Assembly (NCBI GenBank): GCA_942492765.1
Contig: OW818634.1
Coordinates: forward strand, 729,159 to 793,158
Length of the DNA stretch: 64,000 nucleotides
Reading direction: 5' to 3'
From: an uncultured bacterium
GTDB lineage: Bacteria > Patescibacteriota > Patescibacteriia > Patescibacteriales > UBA12465
The notes beneath the pieces are model-generated. The model saw only the letters and a list, made by a program, of their open reading frames with translations, was not told where the DNA came from and searched no databases. Both the position numbers and the translations under genes were made by a program. Positions 1 to 64,000 of the stretch are shown here, in pieces (within the stretch, counting starts at the first letter, position 1; every line of letters begins with the position of its first letter).

Positions 1-153
1 ACCAATACCGGCTTCGGCTGCCTAGAAGATTGCGACGTTTGTACTATTAGTGGTTGCGCGTTGTATGACGGCAAGCCGGGGAAATGTACCCCGCCTTGCA
101 TATGGGACCAAATAACTAGTAGGTGCAATGGTTATGAATATCCTATAGAATAA
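1..153 (+). CDS. 3' end of a CDS cut by the window edge; Cys-rich C-terminal tail
   Basis: Frame 1 is open from base 1 to TAA at 151-153 (TNTGFGCLEDCDVCTISGCALYDGKPGKCTPPCIWDQITSRCNGYEYPIE). It has 7 Cys. No family recognised. Confidence 0.3.
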   Translation, partial: TNTGFGCLEDCDVCTISGCALYDGKPGKCTPPCIWDQITSRCNGYEYPIE

Positions 154-193
154 TTAGGTCTGATTTTTGAGCGTCAATTAAATTAGAACCAAT

Positions 194-529
194 ATGTTAA
201 AGAATAAAAAGAATATTATTATTGCCGGCCTAGCCATCGTCATCCTGATTGCGGCGCTCGTCTTAGCGCTAATAAATCGCCAGCGAGCCGGAACGAGCGA
301 TCAGGCCAAGAACCAGCCGGCTAATACTGTCTTGTCAGCTCCGGAGTTTATGACCGCGCAAGAGAAGGCTTATCTTAATATGAGCGATAATGTCAGGGCT
401 CAGGTATTGAGCCGCAATGCTAGCGGCGCTCCAGCCGTCTATAAAGTCATTAAGACCGAAGCTGATATAATTGCCGATCCTTCTAAGATAGAACCGATCA
501 GTCCGCGTCTCGTAGAAGCGGCAAAATAA
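194..529 (+). CDS. Hypothetical protein with N-terminal membrane anchor
   Basis: 111-aa ORF. The N-terminal hydrophobic helix IIIAGLAIVILIAALVLALI follows a KNKKN stretch. No recognisable domain. Confidence 0.5.
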   Translation: MLKNKKNIIIAGLAIVILIAALVLALINRQRAGTSDQAKNQPANTVLSAPEFMTAQEKAYLNMSDNVRAQVLSRNASGAPAVYKVIKTEADIIADPSKIEPISPRLVEAAK

Positions 530-587
530 AATTGGCAAATGACGGAATTTCCGTTATAATGAAGATAATAATAATTTAGCAGCCCAT

Positions 588-8319: not shown

Positions 8320-9102
8320 ATGGTGATTTCCGCTTGCCTAGTAGTTTATAATGAAGAGAAAAATATCCGGCGCTGTCTGGATAGCCTTCGTGGCGCGGTC
8401 GATGAGATTATCGTCGTTCATGACGGTGAATGCCGGGATAAGACCCTGGAAATATGCCGTGAATACGGAGCTAAGATTTTTGTGCAGCCGCATATTGGCA
8501 TGATGGAGGCTTATTTAGTGTTTGCGATTGAGCAGACTCAGGGGCAATGGGTCATGAGAATCGATGCTGACGAGTTTTTATCAGATGAGCTGAAAAGCGG
8601 TTTAAGGGGATTGATTGAGAGGGCCGAGGCTGAAGGCATAAGCGCATATTCCTTCTGTTGGCTCAATAGTGCCGGCAAAGGTCAGGAGCGGAAAACGATT
8701 CTTTTTAAGAAAGCCGACCTGTTTTGGTTTTCTATGCCCCATCTTTCTTGGCAGACGAGGGGGCGTTTGGAAGAATCTAAATTTGTTCTAGGCCATATGC
8801 TTAAAGATTATGCCGCCGCCGCTTATTGGAATAAACAGAAGAAATGGGCGAAAATTCAAGCCGAATATATTTTAAAAGATTTCAAGGAATTAGATAATTT
8901 TCAGGCCGAAGAAGCTGACTGGGCAAAAGTATATAGCTTTTCTCGCCGCTATGCTAAATATCCGTTTTTGCCAGTTATAAAATTTTTAAAATCTTTTTGT
9001 GAAAATATAGTTGATGGAGCTGGCATGGGAGAGGCCTGGCGTCAAGGTTTATATAATTTTTATCTAGGAAAATATTTGCATGATCTCGTTTATCATCGTT
9101 AA
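8320..9102 (+). CDS. Glycosyltransferase family 2
   Basis: The N-terminus ISACLVVYNEEKNIRRCLDSL...DEIIVVHDG...RIDADE is a typical GT2 (GT-A) DxD arrangement. Confidence 0.75.
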   Translation: MVISACLVVYNEEKNIRRCLDSLRGAVDEIIVVHDGECRDKTLEICREYGAKIFVQPHIGMMEAYLVFAIEQTQGQWVMRIDADEFLSDELKSGLRGLIERAEAEGISAYSFCWLNSAGKGQERKTILFKKADLFWFSMPHLSWQTRGRLEESKFVLGHMLKDYAAAAYWNKQKKWAKIQAEYILKDFKELDNFQAEEADWAKVYSFSRRYAKYPFLPVIKFLKSFCENIVDGAGMGEAWRQGLYNFYLGKYLHDLVYHR

Positions 9103-9871
9103 TTTCAATACAGCTGAAATCACTAAGGATTGCATATCCTCTCTTTTGTTGAACGCTTCTGATAAGGATAGAGAGATAATTATTGTCGATAATGCTTCTA
9201 GTGATGATAGCTTGGCTATCTTTAATGCTACTTTCGGCGGCAGGATAAAGCTGATACGCAACCATGATAATCTCGGTTTCGCTGCTGCTAACAATATCGG
9301 CGCGCGCGTAGCTAAAGGGGATATTCTTTTTTTCTTGAATAGCGATACTATTATCGGATCGGATATCATCGGTCCTATAATCAAGGCTTTGGATAATCAG
9401 AAGCTGGGCATCGTCGCGCCAGTATTGCTTATGGTAGATGGCCAGAAACAGCCTTTTGCCTGCGGCCGTTTTCCGAGATTGTTTTCTGTCGTTTCTGATA
9501 AGATATTATCATTCAATCGCTTTCGGACAGCTGGTCAGCTTAAGCTAGTCGATTGGGTTAGCGGTGCGGCTTTAGCTATCAGGAGAGAGGTCTTTGAAAG
9601 AATCGGCGGCTGGGACGAAAGATTTTTTCTGTATTTCGAAGACATTGATCTCTGTTGGCGAGTGAGGCAGCAGAATCTTGAGGTGGCTATCTTAGAAAAT
9701 ATTTCTGTGACTCATCTTGGCGGCCGCAGCTTAGCGCAGGGCCGAGAGAGAAAGAAGCAGTACTACCTCGCCCAAGATTATTTTTTTAGAAAGAATCATG
9801 GAAAGATGCCCGCTAATATTTTGAAGATAATGCGTTGGCCCTATATAATGATAAAAACCTTAATTCGATAA
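9080..9871 (+). CDS. Glycosyltransferase family 2
   Basis: ISFIIVNFNTAE...IIVDNASSDDS...NLGFAAANNIG...FLNSDT...FFLYFEDIDLCWR is a canonical GT2 pattern. Overlaps the upstream GT2 gene by 23 nt. Confidence 0.8.
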   Translation: MISFIIVNFNTAEITKDCISSLLLNASDKDREIIIVDNASSDDSLAIFNATFGGRIKLIRNHDNLGFAAANNIGARVAKGDILFFLNSDTIIGSDIIGPIIKALDNQKLGIVAPVLLMVDGQKQPFACGRFPRLFSVVSDKILSFNRFRTAGQLKLVDWVSGAALAIRREVFERIGGWDERFFLYFEDIDLCWRVRQQNLEVAILENISVTHLGGRSLAQGRERKKQYYLAQDYFFRKNHGKMPANILKIMRWPYIMIKTLIR

Positions 9872-14210: not shown

Positions 14211-14328
14211 ATATGTTCATCTTGACAAAAGTATAGTATTATTATAAGATTCTTGGTTATTCAGTATTTTAATAATTTGATAAAAACGCAGCCAGGAGCG
14301 ATTTCTTGGCAACCAAAATCTAAATGCC

Positions 14329-15033
14329 ATGAGAAAAGTAGGCAGCAACACCAAGGTAGGATCAAATTCTGCCAATCTTCTAAGAAGCTTAGAACAAGAA
14401 CTCGCGCAATTACAGGTACTTTTTCCTGAGTTAGCACGCTTTGATTTCGATCGAAGTTATGTAGACAGGATAATCAGCGGATGGATAAAATTGCCGGCGG
14501 CCGCGACAAGATGGGCTTTAGTGTTCAATTGGGAGAGGTTTTTTGAATCATCTGAAGAGTCTATCCAATCATCGCTTTCCGCCGTTAATTCGATTCAGGA
14601 AGCTATCGGCGGCCAGTTCCGCCAAGATTTAGGCGCTGAACAGGAGATTAAGCTCTTGAAAACAAGTGCCAGAACGAAATTTGCCCTGCATCAGATCGAT
14701 CAAAGGCAAAAAGGCTTTATTTATGTCATACCGATTCGTGTAAGTCCTCCTTGTCAGGTTGGTGATTATAATGGCATCGGGAAGCTGATGGGCCGCAATG
14801 AGTTTGGCCTTGGCGTGTGCGCCACAGCCTGCTTAATGCTAGCGCAGCCGCTTGGCGCCAAGAGAAATAAGGGGCTTTACGTGGATTGTGCTGGCGACGA
14901 AAGCGTAGCCACTGGCGAAAATCCTTTCTTTTTCTTCCATGGCAAAGGCATATGGTTCTATTCCAGACAATCTAACAATACAGGTAATATCGGTGGTTAC
15001 TATACCAGGATTACTGGGTTTGTAGTCGAATAG
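14329..15033 (+). CDS. Hypothetical protein, paralog B of an orphan pair
   Basis: 234-aa ORF preceded by TTGACA at 14222-14227 and followed by a strong terminator. Shares NEFGLG, ATACLML and DCAGDES blocks with paralog A (REFGLD, SLACMTL, ICAGDEF). Confidence 0.6.
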   Translation: MRKVGSNTKVGSNSANLLRSLEQELAQLQVLFPELARFDFDRSYVDRIISGWIKLPAAATRWALVFNWERFFESSEESIQSSLSAVNSIQEAIGGQFRQDLGAEQEIKLLKTSARTKFALHQIDQRQKGFIYVIPIRVSPPCQVGDYNGIGKLMGRNEFGLGVCATACLMLAQPLGAKRNKGLYVDCAGDESVATGENPFFFFHGKGIWFYSRQSNNTGNIGGYYTRITGFVVE

Positions 15034-18687: not shown

Positions 18688-18697
18688 TTTTCACAAT

Positions 18698-18937
18698 ATG
18701 CCGGAAATAAACAAGATTGATTTAGAAAAATTAGAGGGATTATTGCAGGATAATCTTAAGAGTAGCGCGGAAGTTCTCAAGGCCGTCAACTCTATCAAGA
18801 AATATATACGTTGGCAGCAGGTTTGGAGCACGCTGCGCTTCTTTCTCATTGCTATTCCGATTGCCCTCGGCTTCATCTATCTTCCGCCGCTCATAAAAGA
18901 CGCGCTCCAAAGCTATAAGACCTTCCTCATCAATTAA
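18698..18937 (+). CDS. Small membrane protein (79 aa)
   Basis: Internal ATG of the 164-aa ORF. The upstream part of that ORF overlaps nrdG out of frame. The product MPEINKIDLEKLEG... ends in a hydrophobic helix FFLIAIPIALGFIYLPPLI. Confidence 0.45.
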   Translation: MPEINKIDLEKLEGLLQDNLKSSAEVLKAVNSIKKYIRWQQVWSTLRFFLIAIPIALGFIYLPPLIKDALQSYKTFLIN

Positions 18938-18968: not shown

Positions 18969-20834
18969 ATGCAAGATATCGCAGTATTCGCCCAGACAAC
19001 TTATCGCAACGAATTCAAGAGATTCGGCATCAAGACCGACGATCGTCGCCGGCATATGTATCTGATCGGAAAGACCGGCATGGGCAAGTCTACTATTTTG
19101 GAGAATATGATCGTGGACGATATTCGCGCCGGACATGGCGTTGCCGTTGTCGATCCCCATGGCGACCTAGCCGAAAAGATTATTGAATTCATCCCTGACG
19201 ATCGGATAAAAGACGTCGTCTATTTCAATCCTTCGGATATAAATTTTCCGATCGCTTTTAACGTCGTGGAACAAGTCGAGCCGCATTTGCGCCATCTCGT
19301 CGCTTCCGGGCTTATCGGCGTCTTTCAGAAATTATGGGCGGATTCTTGGGGACCGCGTTTGGAATATATCTTGCGCAACGCTATTTTGGCGATCTTGGAT
19401 TTTCCAGGATCGACTATCTTGGGCGTCGTGCGCATGCTTTCCGATAAGAATTACCGCAAGCGCGTCGTCGCTAATATCAAGGATCCGGTAGTCAAGGCTT
19501 TCTGGGAAAAGGAATTTTCTGGTTATGCCGATAAGTTCGCTTCTGAGGCTGTCTCTCCTATTCAGAATAAGGTCGGACAATTCTTATCGAGCTCGCTCAT
19601 GAGAAATATCATTGGCCAGGTGAAGTCGGCTATCGATATCCGCGATATCATGGATAGCGGCAAAATCTTGATCATGAATCTGTCTAAGGGACGCATCGGC
19701 GAAGATAATTCCGCGCTTCTGGGTGCGATGATGATCACGAAGATCCAATTAGCGGCCATGAGCCGCGTCGATATCCCGGAAAAAGAGCGCCGCGATTTTT
19801 TCCTGTACATCGACGAATTCCAAAATTTCTCGACCGACAGCTTCGCTAATATCTTATCGGAAGCTCGTAAATACCGGCTTAGCTTGATCTTGGCGCATCA
19901 GTATATTGAACAGCTGAGCGAGAAAGTGAAACCAGCTGTCTTCGGTAACGTTGGCACCATGGTCGTTTTCCGCGTCGGCGCGGCCGATGCCGAAGAGCTA
20001 GTCAAGGAATTCACCCCGACTTTTACAGAAGAGGATATCGTCAACCTGCCTAAGTATGAGATGTATCTGAAACTGATGATCGACGGCATCTCCTCTTCGC
20101 CGTTCTCGGCTAAGGGCTTGCCACCTTTGACCGAATCCGAGAAGACTGGAAATACCCAGAAAGTGATCGATTATTCTAGAGAGAATTATGCCTCTGACAG
20201 GGAATCAGTCGAAGAGAAGATCATGAGCTGGCACGAGAATACCGGAGAAGAAACTGCGCCCACTCCAGTCTTAGCGTCGACGCCGGCCTATCACGCAGCC
20301 GTCTCTGCTTCAAGTTCCGCTCCAGTACCGGCCCCATCTCCTAGCCTAGTTAAATCTCCAGCCGTTGCGCCAGCTCGGCCTTATGTCGCGCCAGCTGCCG
20401 CTCCAGCACCCTCTCGCCCAGCCCCGAAACAGCCGGCGGCCGGAGGCTATGCAGCTATTTGTAATTCTTGCGGCCAGGAAACGACGACCGTCTTTGAACC
20501 AGATGGCGTGCGTCCGGTCTATTGCCGCGATTGTCTTAGCAAAAAAAAAGAAGAGAAGCGCCTAGAATTAGAAAAACGCCAAATAGCCAAGATAGAAGAA
20601 AGGCGCCGCGCTGATGAGGAGGACAAGAAAAGGGAGAATGTTCCGACCTTATCCCTTAATGACTTGGCTAAAGCTGCGCCGCGCGATTTTCGCGGCCGCG
20701 AGATAAAAGCTCGCCCGGCTTCTCCAGTTAAGAAAGAACGAACCTCGTCTGATTGGAAAGATATTCCTTTTCCAGAGCTTCCTTATAAGGAGCAGGATCT
20801 GGCCGAAGGAGAAGACATTACTTTTAAGAATTAG
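18969..20834 (+). CDS. TraD/VirD4-like (type IV secretion coupling protein-like) P-loop ATPase with Pro/Ala-rich linker and C-terminal CxxC...CxxC zinc ribbon
   Basis: Walker A GKTGMGKST, Walker B-like FFLYIDEFQNF and an ARKYRLSLILAHQ motif as in TraG/TraD-family ATPases. C-terminal CNSCGQETTTVFEPDGVRPVYCRDC is followed by a K/E/R-rich tail. Confidence 0.7.
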   Translation: MQDIAVFAQTTYRNEFKRFGIKTDDRRRHMYLIGKTGMGKSTILENMIVDDIRAGHGVAVVDPHGDLAEKIIEFIPDDRIKDVVYFNPSDINFPIAFNVVEQVEPHLRHLVASGLIGVFQKLWADSWGPRLEYILRNAILAILDFPGSTILGVVRMLSDKNYRKRVVANIKDPVVKAFWEKEFSGYADKFASEAVSPIQNKVGQFLSSSLMRNIIGQVKSAIDIRDIMDSGKILIMNLSKGRIGEDNSALLGAMMITKIQLAAMSRVDIPEKERRDFFLYIDEFQNFSTDSFANILSEARKYRLSLILAHQYIEQLSEKVKPAVFGNVGTMVVFRVGAADAEELVKEFTPTFTEEDIVNLPKYEMYLKLMIDGISSSPFSAKGLPPLTESEKTGNTQKVIDYSRENYASDRESVEEKIMSWHENTGEETAPTPVLASTPAYHAAVSASSSAPVPAPSPSLVKSPAVAPARPYVAPAAAPAPSRPAPKQPAAGGYAAICNSCGQETTTVFEPDGVRPVYCRDCLSKKKEEKRLELEKRQIAKIEERRRADEEDKKRENVPTLSLNDLAKAAPRDFRGREIKARPASPVKKERTSSDWKDIPFPELPYKEQDLAEGEDITFKN

Positions 20835-23048: not shown

Positions 23049-23078
23049 AAAAACACGCTATCCTCGGCGTGTTTTTTT
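23049..23078 (+). terminator. Rho-independent terminator
   Basis: Stem ACACGC / GCGTGT with flanking A-run and T-run. Followed by an extended -10 box TGCTATAAT. Confidence 0.7.
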
Positions 23079-23095
23079 GTGCTATAATAAATAAC

Positions 23096-23527
23096 ATGAT
23101 AAAAAATAGGCTTGGCTCTCGTCCGCGAGTGGCTAGCTTTGGCGCTAAGCCAAACAATCCCTGGTATCGATTTTTTTCCAGCCAGCGCTTCTTGGCGCTC
23201 ATCGGCCTGGTTTTTTTAGTAGTCATCATTTTCCCGCTGGCCCGGACTTATAGCCAAAGGCAGCTGATCGAGAATGAAATTGAAGGAGTCAAGAAGCAGA
23301 TCAGCGCATATGAGAGTCAGAACCAGCAGCTGAAAGAGCTGGCTTTATACCTGCAATCCGAACAGTCCTTGGAAGAGCAGGCGCGTTTGAATCTGAATAT
23401 GAAAAAGCCTGGCGAGGCCGTAGTCGTCATCGAGGACGCTAAGAAGAGCGTCGTCTCTGTTAGCGCCAGTGCATCAGAAGAGAATGTCAGTAATCTGACA
23501 AAATGGTGGCGCTATTATTTCGATTAA
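23096..23527 (+). CDS. FtsB/DivIC-like septum formation protein
   Basis: The start was moved to the ATG downstream of the terminator and -10 box. One TM helix (LALIGLVFLVVIIFPL) is followed by a coiled coil (ENEIEGVKKQISAYESQNQQLKEL). Confidence 0.6.
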   Translation: MIKNRLGSRPRVASFGAKPNNPWYRFFSSQRFLALIGLVFLVVIIFPLARTYSQRQLIENEIEGVKKQISAYESQNQQLKELALYLQSEQSLEEQARLNLNMKKPGEAVVVIEDAKKSVVSVSASASEENVSNLTKWWRYYFD

Positions 23528-23560: not shown

Positions 23561-23567
23561 TTATCTG

Positions 23568-23640
23568 AGCCGAAGAGGGGAATCGGACCCCTGACCTACG
23601 CGTTACGAGTGCGTTGCTCTACCAGCTGAGCTACTTCGGC
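23568..23640 (-). tRNA. tRNA-Thr (anticodon CGT)
   Basis: The reverse complement folds as a cloverleaf: acceptor GCCGAAG/CTTCGGC, D arm GCTC-AGCTGGTA-GAGC and anticodon loop CTCGTAA. The T arm is AGGGG-TCCGATT-CCCCT. No encoded CCA. Confidence 0.85.
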
Positions 23641-23655
23641 ATCTGGTTTGAGAAA

Positions 23656-23730
23656 TGGAGCGGGTGAGCGGAATCGGACCGCCTTCCTCAGCTTGGGAAG
23701 CTGATGTAATAACCATTATACGACACCCGC
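23656..23730 (-). tRNA. tRNA-Gly (anticodon CCC)
   Basis: The reverse complement has acceptor GCGGGTG/CACCCGC and anticodon stem TCAGC/GCTGA with loop TTCCCAA. The T arm is GGCGG-TCCGATT-CCGCT. The 3' CCA is encoded. Confidence 0.85.
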
Positions 23731-23792: not shown

Positions 23793-25301
23793 ATGAAAAT
23801 ATCTATGAATATTAAATGCAAGAGCTATCTTCTGGTTTTCAGCCTTATCTTCTTATCTTTTCCTGTCTTGACGCGCGCGGCTGATGTTTCTAGCTTAGAG
23901 ATAAAATATGAAGTGGCTGCTTTTACCGCACCCGCCAGCTTGGAGATAAGCGAAAGCGCTGAGGCCGTTAATATTCCCTGGGAATGGCAGAAGCTGTCGT
24001 CTGCTTATGAGTATTCTTTCGTGACGGCTGGCCTATATGATCCGAGCCGCCCTTTGACGTTGAAGATAAATTATCAGCCGAAGAATAATTATCTCAAGCA
24101 GATATTCTCTTATGACTCCTTGTCTAAGACTTGGCGTCCGCTTTTGACCAGTGATAACCCCAAGGAAAAATACGTGACCGCGACGACTGACGCGACTTCC
24201 GGTCGTATCATCGTCTTATATAATCCTGATACCCTGAGCGTGGGCACGGCCAGCTGGTATAAATATAAGGGCGGCCTATTCACGGCTTCGCCTGATTTCG
24301 CGAAAGGCACGGTGCTTCGCGTCTATAATCTCAATAACGGAAAATATGTCGATGTCACGGTCAATGATTGGGGGCCGGAGCGCGATAAGCATCCAGATCG
24401 CGTTGTCGATCTTGATTACGTCGCTTTTTCAAAGATCGCTTCTCCCGGCGCCGGCTTGATTCCGGTGAAAATCGAGACTTTGAAAATTGTCCTTCCGGCC
24501 GTAAAACAGGCCACACCTCAGAATACCAGTAATCTCAATATCACCGCCTCTTCCGCCGTCATCATGCTGGAAAAAGACGGCAGCATCTTGTGGGGCAAGA
24601 ATGAGAAGGAGTCTTCTCCTCTGGCGAGCCTGACTAAGCTAGTGGCTATCAAGATATTCTTGGACACGAATCCGGACTTGAAAAAAGTCGTCACTTATAA
24701 ATATCAGGATGAGAAATATAATTACGCCTATTGCAAGCCTTGGGAGTCGGCGCGCCTGACGGTCAAAGAAGGGGACACCATGACCATTGAGAATCTGGTT
24801 TATAGCGCGCTTGTCGGTTCAGCCAATAACGCCATTGAAAGTCTGGTGCGCGTCAGCGGTCTCAGCCGCAATCAGTTCATCGCCAAGATGAATGAGGCTG
24901 TGAAGGATTGGGGCGCGGGCGAAACGTCTTTTATCGAGCCGACCGGATTATCTCCGGAAAACGTGAGTTCACCTCTTGATTATGCTATAATAACTAAAGA
25001 AGTTTTTGGAAATTCTCTGATTAAGAAGATCAGCACCGCCGCCAAGTATACTTTCAAGACTATCAATACCAAGAAGACTCATACTCTGACGAATACGAAC
25101 CAACTCCTGAAGTCCGGAACCTATCCGATTATCGGCTCGAAGACCGGGTATCTCGAAGAGGCTGGCCATTGCCTGATGACCCGCATCCAGACCGCGAGCG
25201 GAAACCTGATCGCCGTGAATTTCGGATCGCAGAGCAAGGCCGCTAATTTTTCCGATAATGAACAGCTGATCCGTTACGGCCTGCGTCTCATAAAAAAGTA
25301 A
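23793..25301 (+). CDS. Secreted fusion protein: RlpA-like double-psi beta-barrel domain plus D-alanyl-D-alanine carboxypeptidase (S11, PBP5-like)
   Basis: Signal peptide. The RlpA/DPBB-like block is GTASWYKYKGGLFTASPDF..GTVLRVYNLNNGKYVDVTVNDWGP. The S11 motifs are SLTK (SxxK), SAN and KTG. Confidence 0.75.
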   Translation: MKISMNIKCKSYLLVFSLIFLSFPVLTRAADVSSLEIKYEVAAFTAPASLEISESAEAVNIPWEWQKLSSAYEYSFVTAGLYDPSRPLTLKINYQPKNNYLKQIFSYDSLSKTWRPLLTSDNPKEKYVTATTDATSGRIIVLYNPDTLSVGTASWYKYKGGLFTASPDFAKGTVLRVYNLNNGKYVDVTVNDWGPERDKHPDRVVDLDYVAFSKIASPGAGLIPVKIETLKIVLPAVKQATPQNTSNLNITASSAVIMLEKDGSILWGKNEKESSPLASLTKLVAIKIFLDTNPDLKKVVTYKYQDEKYNYAYCKPWESARLTVKEGDTMTIENLVYSALVGSANNAIESLVRVSGLSRNQFIAKMNEAVKDWGAGETSFIEPTGLSPENVSSPLDYAIITKEVFGNSLIKKISTAAKYTFKTINTKKTHTLTNTNQLLKSGTYPIIGSKTGYLEEAGHCLMTRIQTASGNLIAVNFGSQSKAANFSDNEQLIRYGLRLIKK

Positions 25302-25311
25302 ATTTTTCTTT

Positions 25312-25992
25312 ATGATCACCCTGGAAAATGTCTCTAAATCATACGACCATAAGCATAAGGTCCTAAAGGATGTCTCCTTGGCTATCAAGCCGGGAGAATT
25401 TGTCTCGATCGTCGGGCAATCCGGTGCGGGCAAGACGACTTTAGTTCGTCTGCTCATCGGCGAAGAAAGAGCGGACGAAGGCAAGGTCATGATCGGCGAT
25501 TGGGACATTACTCGCCTGCGCCGCCGCGAGATTCCTTATCTGCGCCGCCAGATTGGCGTCATCTTTCAGGATTTCAAACTCTTGCCGAAGAAGACCCTAG
25601 AAGAGAACGTCTCCTTCGCGCTCCAGGTTTCCGGAGGCAAGCCTGATAAGATCAAGAAAGTAGTGCCTAGCGTCTTGAAGATAGTCGGTCTTGATGATAA
25701 GAAGAGGCGCTATCCGAACGAAGTGTCCGGCGGCGAACAGCAGCGCGCGGCCATCGCCCGCGCCCTTGTCCACCAGCCGAAGATATTATTGGCCGATGAA
25801 CCGACTGGGAATCTCGACGCGATCAACGCGGATGAGATCATTAATCTCTTGCTCAGAATAAATAAGTTCGGCACGACCGTTATCCTCGTGACCCATAATA
25901 AGGAGATCGTGAATCGCCTGAATCGCCGGGTAGTGACCATGGAGCACGGCCAGATCATTAGCGACCAAGCGCACGGCAGATATCTGCTTTAA
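25312..25992 (+). CDS. ftsE: Cell division ATP-binding protein FtsE
   Basis: ABC ATPase with GQSGAGKTT, LSGGEQQR and LLADEPTGNLD. Upstream of ftsX. Confidence 0.95.
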   Translation: MITLENVSKSYDHKHKVLKDVSLAIKPGEFVSIVGQSGAGKTTLVRLLIGEERADEGKVMIGDWDITRLRRREIPYLRRQIGVIFQDFKLLPKKTLEENVSFALQVSGGKPDKIKKVVPSVLKIVGLDDKKRRYPNEVSGGEQQRAAIARALVHQPKILLADEPTGNLDAINADEIINLLLRINKFGTTVILVTHNKEIVNRLNRRVVTMEHGQIISDQAHGRYLL

Positions 25993-26002
25993 TTATTTTT
26001 TT

Positions 26003-26911
26003 ATGCTTTCTCTCTATCGCATCATCAAATTCAGCTTCCAGGATATAGTCAGGAATATCTGGCTGACGATCGTGACGATCACTATCTTGCTCATCGCCTT
26101 ATTTTCTATCAACACGCTTCTGACCGTGCGACTTATCAGTGATAACGCGGTCGCAGCTATCAGGGAGAAGATCGATATCAGTCTTTATCTGAAGCCGGAA
26201 ACTGTCGAAAGTGAGATTATTGCCCTGAAGAATAAGATTTCCGCTTCTCCAAAAGTCCGAGAGGTCGTCTATACTTCAAAACAGACCGCGATCGACTCCT
26301 TCCGCTCTAAATACGAGAACGATCCGACGGTCCTCGCCGCCTTGAAAGAATTGGGCCGCAACCCGTTGTCTCCGAGCTTGACCGTCATCCCTAAGAATTT
26401 TGATGAATCTAATCTGGTTATCAATGACTTGAAGATGCTCGATAGCTCCATTATCGAATCGCGCGATTTTTCCGATAATACTTCGATCCTGAATAAGATC
26501 AGCAGCATCACTAAGAGAGTCAATGAAGTCGGCCTCGGGATAATCCTGATTTTTGTCCTGACCAGCCTGCTCGTCGTCTATAACGCTATCCGGGTCGCTA
26601 TCTATACGCATCGCCAGGAGATAGAAATCATGCGCCTCGTTGGCGCTTCCAATTTCTTCATCTACATGCCGTATATGTTTTCCGCCCTGGTTTATGCGCT
26701 CATCAGCGTTCTGATAATCATCTCCATCTTCTACCCCTTCTTGACCCTCCTGCAGCCATACCTAGAAACCTTCTTCATGGGCTATAACGTTAATATCCTC
26801 TCTTATTTCTTAAATAACTTTTTTATCATCTTCGGCGCTCAATTCTTGGCCGTCCTCTTCATCAATATCGTTGCCAGCTTATTCGCGGTCAGGAAATACG
26901 CTAAGGTTTAA
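26003..26911 (+). CDS. ftsX: Cell division permease-like protein FtsX
   Basis: 302 aa. One TM helix, an extracytoplasmic domain and three C-terminal TM helices. Follows ftsE. Confidence 0.9.
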   Translation: MLSLYRIIKFSFQDIVRNIWLTIVTITILLIALFSINTLLTVRLISDNAVAAIREKIDISLYLKPETVESEIIALKNKISASPKVREVVYTSKQTAIDSFRSKYENDPTVLAALKELGRNPLSPSLTVIPKNFDESNLVINDLKMLDSSIIESRDFSDNTSILNKISSITKRVNEVGLGIILIFVLTSLLVVYNAIRVAIYTHRQEIEIMRLVGASNFFIYMPYMFSALVYALISVLIIISIFYPFLTLLQPYLETFFMGYNVNILSYFLNNFFIIFGAQFLAVLFINIVASLFAVRKYAKV

Positions 26912-26982: not shown

Positions 26983-27053
26983 TGCGGGATCGTCTAACGG
27001 TAGGACAGCGGCCTTTGAAGCCGTTTATCCTGGTTCGAATCCAGGTCCCGCAG
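26983..27053 (+). tRNA. tRNA-Gln (anticodon TTG)
   Basis: Acceptor TGCGGGA/TCCCGCA, anticodon stem GCGGC/GCCGT with loop CTTTGAA, and a canonical T arm CCTGG-TTCGAAT-CCAGG. Confidence 0.85.
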
Positions 27054-27060
27054 CTGAATA

Positions 27061-32439: not shown

Positions 32440-32457
32440 GCTCTTGAAAAGACCAAA

Positions 32458-35365: not shown

Positions 35366-35385
35366 AAGATGTTTATTATAAGTGT

Positions 35386-35418
35386 AGGCGCTTCCGGTGT
35401 TTCAGGCCGGAAGCGCCT
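35386..35418. other. GC-rich 12-bp perfect hairpin in an AT-rich intergenic region
   Basis: AGGCGCTTCCGG / CCGGAAGCGCCT around a 9-nt loop, followed on the plus strand by TATTTTT. Confidence 0.8.
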
Positions 35419-35742: not shown

Positions 35743-36423
35743 ATGGAATTTTTAATTAAGATAATAATAGTAATTATTATTGCCGCCTTTTTTGGCTATA
35801 TTATACCAGTAATCCATTTTTCTAAGCCCTGGGTTAATAGTCTTATTGTTGCAGTTATTAGCGCCGTTTATCTTTTTGGTTCTAGCGAAATTATAAACAT
35901 GATTGGTGAAATTTTTGATAAACCGCAAGTATATGTCAGCATACAAAAAAAATCTACAGAAATTAATATCAATTTAAAAACCAAAGGTACCATTACGAGG
36001 TTTTCCCTAAATTACCCGGTACAGGGGATAGTTACTAACCTTAATGACTTGAATTTAATTGCCGATGCCTACACGCCCGTAGCTCGTATAATTGGCGGGG
36101 CATCAGAAAATGATGTACAAAATATTCTAGAAATTTCAATCACAAATTTAAAGCCAGACGCCCAAATAAATTATAAAGTTTTTTATACCCCATCTATTGG
36201 GAACATTTTTATTATGGGGAATGACAAGTATCAGTATTCTTACGAGTGGGAGTATAAAGGAGAAAAAAAGTACAAATATGTTTGGAAAATGGTGTCTGAT
36301 AATTCAGAAACAACCTCTCCCAATGCTAGCGTTCAGGGAGTACAAATTTTTAATAGAGAATTAACGCCAGAAGAGATAAAAAAGATATACGAATCTGGTC
36401 CGTTAAAAAGGAATTTAAATTAG
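35743..36423 (+). CDS. Hypothetical membrane protein (two N-terminal TM helices plus a beta-rich C-terminal domain)
   Basis: 226-aa AT-rich ORF. TM helices are IIIVIIIAAFFGYIIPVI and LIVAVISAVYLFG. The C-terminal tail VQIFNRELTPEEIKKIY resembles the terminal strand motif of LamG/concanavalin-like domains. The promoter TATAAT (35703-35708) is bracketed by ATGTATA / TATACAT. Confidence 0.55.
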   Translation: MEFLIKIIIVIIIAAFFGYIIPVIHFSKPWVNSLIVAVISAVYLFGSSEIINMIGEIFDKPQVYVSIQKKSTEININLKTKGTITRFSLNYPVQGIVTNLNDLNLIADAYTPVARIIGGASENDVQNILEISITNLKPDAQINYKVFYTPSIGNIFIMGNDKYQYSYEWEYKGEKKYKYVWKMVSDNSETTSPNASVQGVQIFNRELTPEEIKKIYESGPLKRNLN

Positions 36424-36510
36424 GTGCTTATTTGTTATATTAAAAAAACAAATCCTCTCCAAAGTCAATCTTGCTTTTAGGGGCTATCCGGGCTAAAATG
36501 ATTAAAAGAT

Positions 36511-40435: not shown

Positions 40436-41050
40436 ATGGATAATTTAAAAAAAGGAATATATCGCCATTATAAGGGAAATGAATATCGGATGATAGAAGA
40501 AGGACAATTAGAGCACGATAAGGAAGACATGGTTATTTATGGCGCTATTGATGGCGGTAATTTGTGGATTCGGCCGAAGGCTGAATTTCTGGAGGAGGTC
40601 GAAGTGGATAGTATAAAAAAACCGCGCTTCGAATTCTTGCGCGAGGAAGAAGCTGAGACGAGCGAGAATAAATACCTCCGCGCCCTGGCTGATTACCAGA
40701 ACCTCTTGAAACAGACAGCGAAGGATAGAGAGGATTTTATCAAGTACGCGTTGTCTGATTTCTTGCAGGATATCCTGCCGGTCTATGACCATCTGAAACT
40801 GTCCATGTCCGGACTGAACGAAGAAGAGGCCAAGAACCCTTGGGCCGTCGGAGTGAAGCATGTCCTTAAGCAATTCAAAGACATTTTGGAAGCGAGAGGT
40901 GTCGAAGAGATCAAGACCATCGGCGAGAAGTTTGATCATGATCTGATGGAGGCGCTGGATGGCCAAGGCGAGAAAGTTAAGCAAGAAATCATGCCGGGCT
41001 ATAAGCTGAATGGAAAAGTCATCCGGCATGCGAAAGTCATAGTTGAATAA
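40436..41050 (+). CDS. grpE: GrpE nucleotide exchange factor with an N-terminal DUF1653-like domain
   Basis: Residues about 5-65 (GIYRHYKGNEYRMI...MVIYGAIDGGNLWIRPKAEFLEEVEVD..KPRFEF) look like DUF1653. The remainder (YLRALADYQNL...FDHDLMEAL...GYKLNGKVIRHAKVIV) is GrpE. Confidence 0.85.
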   Translation: MDNLKKGIYRHYKGNEYRMIEEGQLEHDKEDMVIYGAIDGGNLWIRPKAEFLEEVEVDSIKKPRFEFLREEEAETSENKYLRALADYQNLLKQTAKDREDFIKYALSDFLQDILPVYDHLKLSMSGLNEEEAKNPWAVGVKHVLKQFKDILEARGVEEIKTIGEKFDHDLMEALDGQGEKVKQEIMPGYKLNGKVIRHAKVIVE

Positions 41051-43627: not shown

Positions 43628-44707
43628 ATGTCAAAAGACTATTACAATATTTTAGGCGTCGGTAAGAGCGCCTCTCAGGACGAGATCAAGGCGGCTTTCC
43701 GCAAGAAAGCGCACGAGCATCATCCGGACAAAGGCGGCGACGCGGAAAAATTCAAAGAGCTTAATGAAGCCCACCAGGTTTTAGGCAACCCGGAGAAGCG
43801 GCAGCAGTATGACCGCTTCGGTTCAGCTTATCAGAACGGCCAGGCTGGCGGCGCGGGCGGCTTCGGCGGCGGTTTTAGCGGCTTTCAGGGCGGCCAAGGA
43901 TTTGATTTTGAAGATCTGGGAGATATGTTCGGCGGTTTTGGCGATATTTTTGGTTTTGGCGGAGGCGGAGGCTCTTCTCGAAAGCAAGCTCGCGGCCGTG
44001 ATCTAGAGATGAAAGTCAGTTTAGATTTTTTAGAAGCAGCTTTCGGTTTGGAAAAAGAAATCAGTTTTTCTAAGAATATAACTTGCGACCGCTGCCATGG
44101 CAATGGCGCTGAACCAGGCGCTAAAGTAGAAACTTGCCCGACCTGTAAAGGTTCGGGCCAGGTCAGCCGCCTCCAGCGCACCATCCTTGGCAATATCCAG
44201 ACACAGGCGACTTGCTCGCATTGCCACGGCGAAGGCAAGATTTATTCTCAGAAATGCACGAAATGCGAAGGTAGCGGCGTTTATCATGATCATGTCAGCT
44301 TCAAGGTCAAGATTCCGGCCGGCATTAACGATGGTGAATCGATCAGGCTGAGCGGCCAGGGCGAAGCCGGCCAGAAAGGCGCTCCGGCTGGCGATCTGTA
44401 TCTGCGCGTTTCAGTCAGGAATCATAAGAGATTTGTCCGCGCTGGCTATGATATCCGGACAGAAGAGAAGATTAGCGTAAAACAGGCGGTACTAGGCGAT
44501 AAGATTGATGTCGAGACTATCCATGGTCCGGTGAAGCTGAAGATTCCGGAAGGAACGCAATCAGGGACGGTCTTCAAGCTGAAAGAGAAGGGGGTCACGA
44601 AATTGAATAATCGGGGGATAGGCGATCAGTTTATCAAGGTCATTGTCGAAATCCCGAAGAGCTTGAGTAAGAAGCAGAAACAGATGCTGGAAGAATTGGA
44701 TATTTAG
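43628..44707 (+). CDS. dnaJ: Molecular chaperone DnaJ
   Basis: J domain with HPD (DYYNILGV...HHPDK), a G/F-rich region and four CxxCxG zinc-finger repeats. Confidence 0.97.
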
Positions 44708-53522: not shown

Positions 53523-54104
53523 ATGCGCGTCAATAAATTTTATAAACTCCTGATTTCCGCTTACTGTCTTTCCAGCTTCAGCGAAGGTATTATCCTGCCG
53601 ATCTATGCGATCTTCGTACAGAAGGTCGGTGGCGACATTCTTGAGGCCTCCGGTGCCATGGCCCTCTTCTTGCTGGTAGAAGGAATATTTACCATACTGG
53701 TTCATCGTTTTCACTGGAGCAAGAAGCATAGGCGCCTGATGCTCATCGGCGGCTGGATTATCTGGGTTTTGGGCATTTTCCTTTATTTCTTCATTTCTAA
53801 TATTCTCACTTTGTTGATTACTCAGGTGTTTACGGCCATAGGCAATGCAGTTGCGGATCCGGTCTTTGATGCGGAGCTAGCCGAAAACACCGATCGCGGT
53901 CATGAAGAATTCGAGTATGGCTTCTTCGAAGGGTCAAAGTCTATTTTAGATGGAATTGCTGCGCTGCTCGGTGGTGTCATCGTCGCTATCTTTGGCTTCA
54001 AAGTACTGATAATCGTTATGGTTTCGACGGCGACCGTTTCTTTGGGCTTGATTCTTATTTATGCTCGCAAGAAGAAGACTCCTTGGTTGGCGAAGTTCAT
54101 CTAA
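53523..54104 (+). CDS. Six-TM membrane protein (half-size MFS-like)
   Basis: 193 aa with about 6 hydrophobic helices. No diagnostic motif. Confidence 0.4.
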   Translation: MRVNKFYKLLISAYCLSSFSEGIILPIYAIFVQKVGGDILEASGAMALFLLVEGIFTILVHRFHWSKKHRRLMLIGGWIIWVLGIFLYFFISNILTLLITQVFTAIGNAVADPVFDAELAENTDRGHEEFEYGFFEGSKSILDGIAALLGGVIVAIFGFKVLIIVMVSTATVSLGLILIYARKKKTPWLAKFI

Positions 54105-60926: not shown

Positions 60927-60961
60927 TAAAAAAGAAATACTTCGCCCGTAGCGCTAAAAAA

Positions 60962-62734
60962 ATGTTTTTCAAAAAGCACCTCAATCTAATAATCGTCGGC
61001 TTATTGGCGTTAGCCTTTTTCATGGCGACCGCTAGTTTTAATTATTTGAGCCAGGAGCCGGATTACGTGAAATGGTCATCTCCTGATGAAACCGCTAATT
61101 ATTTCTTCACTAAGAATTTCGCTTTGACCGGTGAATTGGCAGTTTTTGATCGGGCTAATCTGCGCGGTGACAATATGGTCATCCCGCGCAGCGTCAGGTG
61201 CGATAGCGGTTTTATGAAACCGGTGAGCTTCTTGGGCATCACTCTTATCTATGGCACTATTGCCGCCGCGACCGATATCGCCGTCATTCCGTATCTGACT
61301 CCGATTTTTGCCGCCCTAGGCATCCTCCTCTTTTATCTGATTATCCGGCGCCTTTTTTCCGAACGCGTCGGTCTGTGGTCGGCTTTCTTATTAGCGTCTT
61401 TTCCGGTCTATATCTATTATACGGTTCGGAGCATGTTCCATAATATCTTGTTCGTCGTCCTGCTCTTAGCCGGATTATATTTATTCTTGCTGGCTTTGGG
61501 AGAAAAGAGAGAAAAGATAAAGACTGCTTTTCTGACTTGGAAATTGTCATGCCGAACTTGGCTGGAATGCCTAGCCGCGCTCGCTTCCGGCCTCTTCATG
61601 GGGTTAGCCGTTATCACGCGCACCTCGGAGGCTCTCTGGCTCCTGCCATCGCTGTTTATCATCTGGATATTTTATGCGCGCCGGTATGGTCTGATGAAGA
61701 CGGTCTTATCCATCGTCGGCTTTTCTCTGCCATTGCTTTTGGTCGCTTATCTTAATCAGATATTATACGGCTCCTTCTGGTATGGCGGCTATAATGAGAT
61801 GAATCGGTCCTTAGAGGATATCGCCCGCACCGGCGGCGAGATATTCAGATTCAGCTGGGGTTTAGATAATCTTGTCTATTATCGCGATTATCTCTTGAAG
61901 ATATTTAAGAATATCTTTTATTTCGGCTTCAATCCGGAGCAATCAAGGTCGATGTTTATCAATTATGTTATCAAGATGTTTCCGGCTTTGTTTTATGCGG
62001 GTCTATCCGGAATATTGCTCCTGATAGTCCAGAATTGCCGCCGTTTCCAGAAGAAATATCTGGTCTATGTCTTGGTCTGGCTATCTCTGAGCGCTTTTCT
62101 CGTGGTCTATTATGGCAGCTGGAAGTTTAACGATAATCCAGATTTAGCGCACTACACTATCGGCAATTCTTATACCCGCTATTGGCTGCCATTCTATCTA
62201 GGTCTAATACCTTTAGCTGCGTTAACTCTTGTGCGCATATCGCGAACTCTGCTGCTGATGAGCGCTAAGACTACGGGGCGCATCAGGCGGATGATCGCCA
62301 CCGGCCTGCAAGCGGCCGTTATCCTGGTCTTGGCCGCTATTTCTATCATCTTCGTGCTTTACGGTTCAGAAGAAGGCTTGGCTTATCTGTATTATAATAA
62401 TCAAGCCGAGGAGTTCAATACTAGGCAGGTCTGGGCGCTGACTGATCCGGAAGGAATAGTCATTACCAGGTATTATGATAAGTTTTTTTGGCCGGAACGG
62501 CGCGTTATCATGGGCACTCTTCCTGACGACGGCATCCTGAAAGCCGCCGTAAAATTAGTCCATTATTATCCGGTCTATTATTATAATTTTTACCTAAAGC
62601 CCGCTGACGTCAATTATCTCAATCAGAATAAATTCTCTCCTTACGGGCTGATGATGAAAGAAGTGAAGAAAGTGAATGCGAAGTTCGGTTTATATAAGTT
62701 AGAGTTAGGGACTAGCACTGTCCCGGTAAAGTAA
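60962..62734 (+). CDS. ArnT/PMT-like (GT-C, family 39/83-type) membrane glycosyltransferase
   Basis: 590 aa polytopic protein. The N-terminal loop SSPDETANYFF (Asp/Glu in the first extracytoplasmic loop) is as in GT-C enzymes. Confidence 0.55.
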   Translation: MFFKKHLNLIIVGLLALAFFMATASFNYLSQEPDYVKWSSPDETANYFFTKNFALTGELAVFDRANLRGDNMVIPRSVRCDSGFMKPVSFLGITLIYGTIAAATDIAVIPYLTPIFAALGILLFYLIIRRLFSERVGLWSAFLLASFPVYIYYTVRSMFHNILFVVLLLAGLYLFLLALGEKREKIKTAFLTWKLSCRTWLECLAALASGLFMGLAVITRTSEALWLLPSLFIIWIFYARRYGLMKTVLSIVGFSLPLLLVAYLNQILYGSFWYGGYNEMNRSLEDIARTGGEIFRFSWGLDNLVYYRDYLLKIFKNIFYFGFNPEQSRSMFINYVIKMFPALFYAGLSGILLLIVQNCRRFQKKYLVYVLVWLSLSAFLVVYYGSWKFNDNPDLAHYTIGNSYTRYWLPFYLGLIPLAALTLVRISRTLLLMSAKTTGRIRRMIATGLQAAVILVLAAISIIFVLYGSEEGLAYLYYNNQAEEFNTRQVWALTDPEGIVITRYYDKFFWPERRVIMGTLPDDGILKAAVKLVHYYPVYYYNFYLKPADVNYLNQNKFSPYGLMMKEVKKVNAKFGLYKLELGTSTVPVK

Positions 62735-62736
62735 AT

Positions 62737-64000
62737 ATGAAACATAATAAGACTTATCACATAATAACCATCGGCTGCCAGATGAACAAAGTCGACAGCG
62801 AGCGCCTGGCGGCTTTTTTGGAATCTGAGGGTTATAAATCCAGTCCAGATTTCAAGCGCGCCGGCGTCGTCATCATCAATACTTGCGGCATCCGCCAGAT
62901 GGCCGAGGATCGCGTCTACGGCCTAGTCAATCAGATCAAGAAATTCAATCCGAATTCGAAAGTAGTCATTGCCGGCTGCCTGAGTAAGCGCACGGATGTG
63001 AAGAAGCGCTTAGACGGAAGAGCAGATGTATTCTTGCCTATCAGCGAAATGCTGCGTTTGCCGGAATTATTAGGCGGAGAAGAATTCCAGCCGCTTTTCA
63101 GCCTGGATGAAGTGCGTTTGGAGAAAGGAGAAAAATATTTAGATATAAAGCCGAAGCATGAAAGTAAATTCACTGCCTATATACCGATCGGCAACGGCTG
63201 TAATAATTTCTGTTCCTATTGCGTCGTGCCCTATGCGCGCGGGCGGGAAGTCTATCGCCGTGCGGCCGATATCTTGAAAGAAGCGCGCGGCCTCATCAAG
63301 CAGGGTTATAAGGAGATAGTCCTTATCGCTCAGAACGTCAATAGTTATCATGACGATGAGATGAAATTCCCCGAACTCCTAGAGAAGATCATCAAGATTC
63401 CAGGAAAATTCTGGATCCGTTTCTCATCTAGCCACCCGAAAGATATGTCTGACGATCTGATAAGAGTTATTGGATCGTCTCCCAAAGTTTGTCCGCATTT
63501 GCATCTAGCGGTCCAATCCGGCGATGATCAGGTCTTAAAGGCGATGAATCGCGGCTATACCGCGAAGCATTATCAGGGTCTCATTAAGAAAGTCCGCGCG
63601 GCCAAGCCGGGCATCGCGATTACGACCGACGTCATTGTCGGTTTTGCGGGAGAGACCAAGGCGCAATTCCTAAATACCGTAAAATTATTCAAGGCGGTCA
63701 ATTTTGATCTGGCCTATATCGCCCAGTATAGCCCGCGCCCGGGCACAGTTTCATATAATAAGATGAAAGATAATGTCAGCCCGGCCGAAAAGAAGCGCCG
63801 CGCTGAAGTTATCAACGAAATCTTAAAAGTGACAGCAGCGAAGAATAACCAGTCGCATCTGGGAGAGATAATGGAAGTGCTCGTCGAAGGGAAGAATAAG
63901 CGCGGAAAATATTATGGCAAGACCGGCAGCTATCAGACCGTGCTTATCAATGTGGATAAAAAGCAGAAAGATAGCTTGATTGGAAATTTTGTCGGAGTGA
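62737..64000 (+). CDS. miaB: tRNA methylthiotransferase MiaB (3' end beyond the window)
   Basis: ATG at 62737 and open to the window end. It has the UPF0004 Cys triad (GCQMN, NTCGIR, AGC) and the radical-SAM motif CNNFCSYCVVPYARGRE. Confidence 0.9.
   Translation, partial: MKHNKTYHIITIGCQMNKVDSERLAAFLESEGYKSSPDFKRAGVVIINTCGIRQMAEDRVYGLVNQIKKFNPNSKVVIAGCLSKRTDVKKRLDGRADVFLPISEMLRLPELLGGEEFQPLFSLDEVRLEKGEKYLDIKPKHESKFTAYIPIGNGCNNFCSYCVVPYARGREVYRRAADILKEARGLIKQGYKEIVLIAQNVNSYHDDEMKFPELLEKIIKIPGKFWIRFSSSHPKDMSDDLIRVIGSSPKVCPHLHLAVQSGDDQVLKAMNRGYTAKHYQGLIKKVRAAKPGIAITTDVIVGFAGETKAQFLNTVKLFKAVNFDLAYIAQYSPRPGTVSYNKMKDNVSPAEKKRRAEVINEILKVTAAKNNQSHLGEIMEVLVEGKNKRGKYYGKTGSYQTVLINVDKKQKDSLIGNFVGV

What the first reader, a model, noticed from the sequence alone, without database searches (positions are those of the whole stretch)
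1..64000. No called coding sequence ends in TGA
I read the terminal codon of every CDS listed here, about 70 including minus-strand genes. All end in TAA (the large majority) or TAG. The TAG genes include ftsZ, the 234-aa orphan, the TraD-like ATPase, the exonuclease, PAP2, GNAT, the 226-aa island gene, the YdjM-like gene, dnaJ, tatD and the 792-aa gene. Conserved proteins are full length under the standard table, so TGA is not a frequent sense codon either, unlike code 4 or code 25 genomes. For a genome of intermediate base composition, complete avoidance of TGA stops over 64 kb is unexpected. It could reflect loss or weakness of release factor 2 with TGA effectively unassigned, or an early or late stage of stop-codon reassignment.
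Basis: seen in the sequence. Interest (0 to 1): 0.55.

Follow-up and report, generated by a model that had tools for sequence, protein, structure and literature searches.

The report
Rare TGA stops, not new code
This 64-kb piece of a tiny uncultured groundwater-type bacterium (Falkowbacteria-like, Patescibacteria) really has no gene ending in TGA, but its whole lineage uses TGA only rarely while still using it as a stop, so this is most likely a strong stop-codon bias and not a changed genetic code.

Summary
There are 64 complete CDS plus one 5'-partial CDS: TAA 52 (+1), TAG 12, TGA 0. None of the 19,530 sense codons is TGA, yet TGA is common out of frame (553 and 555 in the other two frames, observed/expected 1.08). 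The four short TGA-ending ORFs are spurious.

The window comes from a Falkowbacteria-like Patescibacteria chromosome. I fetched 161 related loci. The clade uses TGA for only 8% of stops (78 of 974), against 20% in more distant CPR relatives. At matched GC the figures are 9.6% and 24%. TAG outnumbers TGA.

TGA is still a genuine stop in the closest relatives. L161 (87.6% nucleotide identity) has 1 TGA stop in 24 genes. In L081 the TraD-like ortholog ends in TGA exactly where the window has TAG. No ortholog in any locus carries an internal TGA, and none of 200 tRNAs has a UCA anticodon.

Against the clade baseline, zero in 64 genes is only mildly unusual (P about 0.004 to 0.03). The best reading is the standard code with lineage-wide avoidance of the RF2-specific stop. 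Loss of RF2 in this genome could not be tested, because its prfB and the rest of its 895,742-bp contig were unreachable. I give that reading about 10%.

The parts
1..64000 (.). Whole window. 64 complete CDS plus a 5'-partial CDS (ends TAA at 151-153) and a 3'-partial miaB-like CDS (62737 onward). Stops: TAA 52 (+1), TAG 12, TGA 0. 91.8% coding, GC 0.46.
18969..20834 (+). TraD/TrwB-like ATPase gene ending in TAG. The homologous stop position is TGA in L081 and TAA in L083 and L084, so all three stop codons interchange at one site within the genus.
43628..44707 (+). dnaJ ending in TAG. Full-length orthologs end in TGA in L002 (DnaK 90% identical), L020, L030 and L038.
23069..23527 (+). divIC-like gene ending in TAA. 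13 of 46 orthologs with aligned C-termini end in TGA.
26003..26911 (+). ftsX ending in TAA. It was the query that fetched L081-L160. Orthologs in L093 and L146 end in TGA.
40436..41050 (+). grpE (with N-terminal DUF1653) ending in TAA. The ortholog in L011 (DnaK 90%) ends in TGA at the same C-terminus.
18698..18937 (+). Conserved 79-aa membrane-protein gene ending in TAA. It is the real gene in the nrdG-TraD spacer. The TGA-ending ORF 18691-18876(-) is its antisense shadow.
14217..14375 (-). 52-aa TTG-start ORF ending in TGA in a promoter-like spacer. It has no homolog in any locus and is judged spurious.
62931..63485 (-). Two short TGA-ending ORFs (62931-63173 and 63348-63485), both antisense to the miaB-like CDS. 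Spurious.
23567..23730 (-). tRNA-Thr(CGT) and tRNA-Gly(CCC). With tRNA-Gln(TTG) at 26983-27054 these are the only tRNAs in the window, and none has a UCA anticodon.
25312..26911 (+). ftsE-ftsX. In Moranbacteria-like relatives prfB lies directly upstream of ftsE. Here the upstream gene is a D-Ala-D-Ala carboxypeptidase (23793-25301), and no release-factor gene occurs anywhere in the window.

Best explanation
The window is ordinary chromosomal DNA of a Falkowbacteria-like member of the Patescibacteria (CPR) that uses the standard bacterial code. Its whole clade strongly avoids the RF2-specific stop codon TGA. TGA makes up about 8% of stops in the clade, against 20-24% in more distant CPR relatives of similar GC. 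TAA makes up about 73-80%, and TAG outnumbers TGA.

TGA is still read as a stop in the lineage. Zero TGA in 64 genes is the low tail of that bias. It is pushed lower because the window is rich in core, highly expressed genes, whose orthologs use TGA only about 5% of the time.

Shown:
- TGA is absent in frame in the window.
- The depletion is clade-wide.
- Near relatives have genuine TGA stops at conserved C-termini.
- No sense TGA or tRNA-UCA was found in the sampled DNA.

Inferred: RF2 is present in this genome, and the bias reflects selection against a poorly served stop (low RF2 supply or efficiency, or leakier UGA termination), not mutation pressure. The mutation argument is that A-to-G pressure would raise TAG and TGA equally, yet TAG to TGA is 12 to 0 here and 181 to 78 in the clade.
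For: Identity of the organism:
- The best DnaK hits are named Candidatus Falkowbacteria or Patescibacteria group. An identical DnaK (P0001) sits on an 895,742-bp NCBI contig.

Window census:
- TAA 52, TAG 12, TGA 0.
- No in-frame TGA in 19,530 codons, against 553 and 555 TGA in the other two frames.

Clade census (ORFs of at least 150 aa):
- TAA 715, TAG 181, TGA 78, so TGA is 8.0%. The outgroup has TAA 288, TAG 114, TGA 102, so 20%.
- TGA share rises as DnaK identity falls: 9%, 7%, 14%, 16%, 28%.
- At GC 0.42-0.52 the clade has 9.6% and the outgroup 24%.
- Rates are homogeneous. The beta-binomial fit collapses to a binomial, and 37 loci have zero TGA against 37.4 expected.

Genuine TGA stops in close relatives:
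- L161 (DnaK 99%, 87.6% nucleotide identity over 16 kb, GC 0.466): the histidine-kinase gene ends in TGA, 1 of 24 genes.
- L081: the TraD-like ortholog ends in TGA where the window has TAG and L083 and L084 have TAA.
- L001: a response-regulator gene ends in TGA.
- dnaJ in L002, grpE in L011, the PBP2 gene in L012 and ftsX in L093 also end in TGA.
- Among 652 orthologs of window genes with aligned C-termini, 34 (5.2%) end in TGA.

No sign of recoding:
- No alignment to a window protein spans an internal TGA in any locus.
- No UCA anticodon among 200 tRNAs.

Precedent: Flavobacterium johnsoniae uses RF2-specific stops for only 7% of genes and retains prfB (PMC12421855).
Against: - prfB was not found for this genome or for any member of its clade. 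No release-factor gene lies within 10 kb of dnaK or ftsX in about 106 clade loci, whereas Moranbacteria-like relatives have prfB directly upstream of ftsE.
- Zero of 64 is still below the clade expectation: P = 0.004 at 8.2%, about 0.03 with ortholog-specific rates, and about 0.03 at the genus-level rate of ~5.5%. This genome may therefore avoid TGA more strictly than its relatives.
- No sequence from the same species outside the window could be obtained.
- The proposed cause (low RF2 supply or efficiency) is untested.
Confidence: 0.8

Rival explanations
1. This particular genome has gone one step further than its relatives. All TGA stops have been purged, prfB has been lost or disabled, and UGA is an unassigned codon. 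That would be a natural codon-capture or unassigned-codon intermediate at about 46% GC.
For: - 0 of 64 stops and 0 of 19,530 sense codons are TGA.
- This is significantly fewer than the homogeneous clade rate predicts (P = 0.004).
- TAG to TGA is 12 to 0.
- There are no ATGA start-stop overlaps in the window, although 2.3% of clade genes have one.
- No prfB is in the window, and none lies next to ftsE where Moranbacteria-like relatives keep it.
Against: - The closest relatives (87.6% and 84.6% nucleotide identity) still end genes in TGA, one of them at a site homologous to a window stop. Any loss would therefore be very recent.
- With ortholog-specific rates the zero count has P of about 0.03. 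That is unremarkable for a feature picked out by scanning.
- Clade rates show no excess of TGA-free loci.
- The absence of prfB from 64 kb of a roughly 0.9-Mb genome says nothing either way.
Confidence: 0.1
2. UGA has been reassigned to an amino acid (Trp as in code 4, or Gly as in code 25 of the related Gracilibacteria and Absconditabacteria), and it is simply rare in this stretch.
For: - The organism belongs to the CPR, which contains the code-25 lineages.
- No gene ends in TGA in the window.
Against: - There is no in-frame TGA in 19,530 codons of the window.
- No internal TGA is spanned by an alignment in orthologs from 161 loci.
- TGA-ending ORFs in relatives stop at the conserved C-terminus.
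- No tRNA-UCA among 200 tRNAs.
- Conserved proteins are full length under table 11.
Confidence: 0.02
3. This is pure sampling and expression bias with no lineage effect. The window happens to hold highly expressed genes that prefer TAA in any bacterium.
For: - The window holds dnaK, dnaJ, grpE, the atp operon, ftsZ, ftsA, secDF and clpP.
- Orthologs of window genes use TGA less often (5.2%) than the clade average (8.2%).
Against: - The same gene neighbourhoods in more distant CPR relatives use TGA for 20-28% of stops, so the depletion is specific to the lineage.
- P(0 of 64) at 24% is about 2e-8.
Confidence: 0.05

Closest known systems
Standard-code bacteria with very low use of the RF2-specific stop but an intact prfB. 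Examples are Flavobacterium johnsoniae (7% of stops) and the prfB-retaining Mycoplasmatota (Acholeplasmataceae) (PMC12421855).
   Same: TGA is a rare but genuine stop. TAA dominates. Demand for RF2 is low. There is no sense TGA.
   Different: This lineage is in the Patescibacteria, and its low TGA share persists at intermediate GC (0.42-0.52), where its own outgroups use 24%. prfB was not observed here, and the window itself has zero TGA.
UGA-to-Gly code 25 in Gracilibacteria and Absconditabacteria, and UGA-to-Trp code 4 in Mycoplasmatales, insect endosymbionts and Eggerthellaceae (PMC8629427, PMC13462651).
   Same: No gene ends in TGA in the window. The organism is a CPR bacterium with a small genome.
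   Different: The defining markers are absent from the sampled DNA: in-frame UGA at conserved Gly or Trp columns, and tRNA-UCA. Close relatives terminate genes at TGA.
Unassigned-codon or codon-capture intermediates. Examples are CGG in Mycoplasma capricolum and the CGG-free outgroup of Peptacetobacter (PMC8629427). The 'unassigned codon' model for UGA is discussed in PMC13462651.
   Same: Within 64 kb the codon appears neither as a stop nor as a sense codon.
   Different: Absence is shown only for about 7% of the genome. Loss of the decoding factor is not shown. GC is not low, and sister species still use the codon.

Membership tests
UGA-reassigned genetic code (table 4 or table 25) | In-frame UGA at conserved Trp or Gly positions of conserved proteins | tested here: not met
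   There are 0 in-frame TGA in 19,530 codons. No alignment spans an internal TGA in orthologs from 161 loci. The single apparent case was a run of N.
UGA-reassigned genetic code (table 4 or table 25) | A tRNA with anticodon UCA | tested here: inconclusive
   None among the 3 window tRNAs or among 200 tRNAs in the window plus all loci. This covers only about 7% of the focal genome.
UGA-reassigned genetic code (table 4 or table 25) | Loss of prfB (RF2) | not testable with these tools
   The window has no prfA or prfB. The rest of the 895,742-bp contig could not be fetched. The top 120 hits of an RF2 homolog search were all Moranbacteria or Parcubacteria.
Unassigned UGA (codon-capture intermediate) | UGA absent genome-wide both as stop and as sense codon | tested here: inconclusive
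   True for the 64-kb window. The rest of the genome was not available.
Unassigned UGA (codon-capture intermediate) | No release factor able to read UGA | not testable with these tools
   As above: prfB status is unknown for this genome and for its clade.
Unassigned UGA (codon-capture intermediate) | Closest relatives also lack UGA, or show a graded approach to zero | tested here: not met
   L161 has 1 TGA stop in 24 genes. L081 has 2 in 16 (ORFs of at least 150 aa; 2 of 18 at 80 aa). L083 has 1 in 17 (1 of 18 at 80 aa). The clade is a homogeneous 8.2% with no excess of zero-TGA loci.
Standard code 11 with low RF2-specific stop usage | TGA terminates conserved genes at the canonical C-terminus in the lineage | tested here: met
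   34 of 652 orthologs with aligned C-termini end in TGA. The TraD-like stop site is TAG, TGA or TAA among congeners.
Standard code 11 with low RF2-specific stop usage | TGA share far below GC-matched relatives | tested here: met
   9.6% in the clade against 24% in the outgroup at GC 0.42-0.52. 8.0% against 20% overall.
Standard code 11 with low RF2-specific stop usage | Intact prfB present | not testable with these tools
   Inferred only from the working TGA stops in close relatives. The one prfB seen in the DnaK and FtsX locus sets is in the Moranbacteria-like L038. The other prfB loci, L162-L164, are also Moranbacteria-like and were fetched through RF2 hit P0143.

The most novel reading that the evidence does not exclude
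This Falkowbacteria-like genome (about 0.9 Mb, 46% GC) has completely eliminated UGA and lost RF2, leaving UGA unassigned. It would be a free-living-style natural snapshot of the 'unassigned codon' stage of stop-codon reassignment. It would have arisen in a clade already at about 8% TGA, and without extreme AT pressure.
Probability: 0.1. Interest if true: 0.75.

Novelty: new member of a known kind. Interest (0 to 1): 0.27.

Why it matters
As it stands, this is a clean example of lineage-specific stop-codon bias and not a code change. A sizeable Patescibacteria clade keeps TGA at about 8% of stops and prefers TAG over TGA even at intermediate GC.

That has some practical use. Gene callers and code-inference tools should not read 'no TGA stops' in a CPR contig as evidence for code 25 or code 4.

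It also marks the clade as a place where demand for RF2 is low. The step to an unassigned or reassigned UGA would therefore be short. If the complete genome proved to be TGA-free and to lack prfB, it would be a rare natural intermediate in stop-codon reassignment.

Tried and rejected
1. Reaching the rest of the focal genome. Exact-protein look-ups failed for four window proteins and for the identical DnaK P0001. The genome is not among the species representatives in genome contigs. The nearest DNA obtained is 87.6% identical (L161).

2. Finding prfB of the clade.
- tblastn with E. coli RF1, E. coli RF2 and a CPR RF2 against all loci found only the prfB of L038.
- I searched with the L038 RF2 and compared contig lengths with those of clade contigs. 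All 120 top hits were Moranbacteria or Parcubacteria and none matched.
- A near match (46,587 against 46,588 bp) turned out to be an unrelated contig.
- The 50%-identity representative library and a cluster look-up returned Firmicutes and unnamed representatives, which was uninformative.

3. Hypothesis that the surviving TGA stops are concentrated in ATGA start-stop overlaps. Rejected: 28% of TGA stops are such overlaps in both the clade and the outgroup.

4. Hypothesis of clade-specific back-up stops after TGA. Tandem stops follow TGA at a similar rate in the clade (13%) and the outgroup (11%).

5. A first screen for internal TGA used the wrong BLAST columns and should be ignored. It was redone correctly. 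Its only hit was a run of N in L043.

6. Literature searches for low TGA use or RF2 loss in Patescibacteria or Falkowbacteria found nothing specific.
Full report
**What is in the window**

The 64-kb window is densely coding (91.8%) with GC 0.46. It holds core bacterial genes, all full length against curated profiles under table 11:
- clpP, secD, secF, ftsA, ftsZ
- nrdR, nrdD, nrdG
- a TraD/TrwB-like ATPase
- divIC, ftsE, ftsX, lexA
- a P-type ATPase and PBP2
- hrcA, grpE, hsp20, dnaK, dnaJ, tatD
- the complete atp operon, uppP and mltG

The best DnaK homologs are named Candidatus Falkowbacteria or Patescibacteria group. An identical DnaK (P0001) lies on an 895,742-bp NCBI contig. The source is therefore a small-genome CPR bacterium.

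**Checking the observation**

Mechanical ORF calling followed by curation gives 64 complete CDS: TAA 52, TAG 12, TGA 0. A 5'-partial CDS also ends in TAA.

The only TGA-ending ORFs are four short ones, and none is credible:
- Two are antisense to a miaB-like gene that runs off the window end.
- One is the antisense shadow of a better-conserved 79-aa plus-strand gene that ends in TAA.
- One has no homolog anywhere in the fetched loci.

No TGA occurs in frame among 19,530 sense codons. TGA is frequent in the other two frames (553 and 555) and between genes (88). Its overall observed/expected ratio is 1.08. The avoidance is therefore specific to the reading frame and is not a shortage of the trinucleotide.

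**Is it more than chance? It depends on the baseline**

I fetched three sets of related DNA:
- 80 loci around dnaK from species-representative genomes.
- 80 loci around ftsX from metagenomes.
- One Logan contig carrying a 99%-identical DnaK.

TGA share of stops rises steadily with distance from the window, measured by DnaK identity:

| DnaK identity | TGA share of stops |
|---|---|
| at least 86% | 9% |
| 78-85% | 7% |
| 72-77% | 14% |
| 66-71% | 16% |
| 60-65% | 28% |

Pooled, the clade has TAA 715, TAG 181 and TGA 78 (8.0%). The outgroup has TAA 288, TAG 114 and TGA 102 (20%). At matched GC (0.42-0.52) the figures are 9.6% and 24%. Within the clade the rate is homogeneous. A beta-binomial fit collapses to a binomial, and 37 loci have zero TGA against 37.4 expected.

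The probability of 0 in 64 is then:
- About 2e-8 against the outgroup rate.
- 0.004 against the clade rate.
- About 0.03 with gene-specific rates. Orthologs of the window's own genes, with aligned C-termini, end in TGA only 5.2% of the time (34 of 652, of which 13 are divIC). Using those rates for the 34 genes that have orthologs and 8.2% for the remaining 30 gives about 0.03 (my arithmetic).

**Is TGA still a stop in this lineage? Yes**

- The nearest DNA available is L161, 87.6% identical over 16 kb with GC 0.466. It ends a histidine-kinase gene in TGA, 1 of 24 called genes.
- L081 is 84.6% identical and syntenic from nrdD to ftsX. It ends the TraD-like ortholog in TGA at exactly the position where the window has TAG and L083 and L084 have TAA.
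- Other full-length orthologs that end in TGA: a response regulator in L001, dnaJ in L002, grpE in L011, the PBP2 gene in L012, hsp20 in L032 and ftsX in L093.
- A corrected screen found no alignment to any window protein that spans an internal TGA in any locus. The single apparent case was a run of N.
- None of 200 tRNAs in the window and loci has a UCA anticodon.

TGA therefore behaves as a rare but genuine stop and not as a sense codon.

**Release factor 2**

This is the test I could not complete.
- The window has no prfA or prfB.
- The focal contig could not be reached beyond the window.
- Among the 161 dnaK, ftsX and L161 loci only one prfB was seen, in the Moranbacteria-like L038.
- There, and in L162-L164, prfB sits directly upstream of ftsE-ftsX, in a cluster that continues to hrcA-grpE-dnaK.
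- In the focal clade no release-factor gene lies within 10 kb of ftsX or dnaK in about 106 loci. prfB has therefore either moved or been lost there.
- Because clade members end about 8% of their genes in TGA at conserved C-termini, relocation is the parsimonious reading.
- Homolog and representative searches seeded with the L038 RF2 never reached the clade.

**Most likely explanation**

The organism uses the standard code, and its lineage selects against the RF2-specific stop. Mutation pressure alone is unlikely to be the cause, for three reasons:
- The clade's higher-GC members keep TGA low.
- TGA is abundant out of frame.
- TAG is favoured over TGA (12 to 0 in the window, 181 to 78 in the clade), whereas the outgroup has near parity (114 to 102).

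The asymmetry points to termination efficiency: low RF2 supply or activity relative to RF1, or leakier UGA. That step is inferred and not shown.

Comparable low RF2-specific stop use with an intact prfB is documented for Flavobacterium johnsoniae (7%) and for the prfB-retaining Mycoplasmatota (PMC12421855).

Two side hypotheses failed. Neither enrichment of the surviving TGA stops in ATGA overlaps nor clade-specific back-up stops after TGA was seen.

**What remains open**

The window's zero is still somewhat below the clade expectation. I cannot exclude that this species has purged TGA entirely and lost prfB. I put that at about 10%, because sister species less than 15% divergent still use TGA, one of them at a site homologous to a window stop. 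Reassignment of UGA to an amino acid is effectively excluded for the sampled DNA.

I found no paper describing low TGA use or RF2 loss in Falkowbacteria or Patescibacteria outside the known code-25 lineages.

**Verdict**

Its dramatic interpretation is mostly not supported. This is a new example of a known kind of stop-codon bias, of modest interest. One cheap and decisive follow-up remains: a genome-wide stop census plus a prfB and tRNA-UCA search on the 895,742-bp contig.

Noticed in passing
window 32000-36450: Low-GC island (GC 0.32 against 0.46-0.47). It carries an OLD/GajA/AriA-like AAA_15/AAA_21 ATPase (32709-34460) and unannotated neighbours. In the nearest relative, L161, the same slot upstream of PBP2 holds a Fic protein and a two-component system instead. 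It looks like a variable defence or accessory slot.
   Followed up: partly
window 18698-18937 (+): Small 79-aa gene with a predicted membrane helix, between nrdG and the TraD-like gene. It is conserved in at least 20 relatives and is easy to miss, because a longer TTG-start ORF and an antisense ORF overlap it.
   Followed up: yes
L038 2302-5320; L162 10001-17413; L163; L164: Moranbacteria-like relatives keep prfB-ftsE-ftsX-(small ORF)-hrcA-grpE-dnaK as one cluster. In the focal clade ftsEX and hrcA-grpE-dnaK lie about 13 kb apart, and no prfB is within 10 kb of either.
   Followed up: partly
L162 9932-10001 and L038 2302-3390: The prfB of L162 carries the classical +1 frameshift site (TAT CTT TGA C). 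The prfB of L038 is a single uninterrupted 362-codon ORF. RF2 autoregulation therefore varies among closely related CPR lineages.
   Followed up: partly
window 40436-41050: GrpE carries an N-terminal DUF1653 domain. The fusion is also present in L161, whereas L162 has a NUDIX-GrpE fusion instead.
   Followed up: no
window 18969-20834: The TraD/TrwB-like coupling-protein ATPase has a C-terminal treble-clef zinc finger. It is not on a mobile island. It sits in a conserved core neighbourhood (nrdDG, 79-aa gene, TraD-like, exonuclease, GT2, divIC) shared across the clade.
   Followed up: partly
window 8320-9871: Two family-2 glycosyltransferase ORFs (8320-9102 and 9080-9871) overlap by 23 nt in different frames.
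   Followed up: no
window 53523-54104: The MFS transporter ORF is only 193 aa and matches the first half of the MFS_1 profile (positions 2-180 of 347). It may be truncated or a half-transporter.
   Followed up: no
window 23567-23730 and 26983-27054; clade loci L081-L160: tRNA-Thr(CGT) plus tRNA-Gly(CCC) upstream of the dacB-like gene, and tRNA-Gln(TTG) downstream of ftsX, form a conserved frame around dacB-ftsE-ftsX across the clade (51, 51 and 77 copies in the fetched loci).
   Followed up: partly
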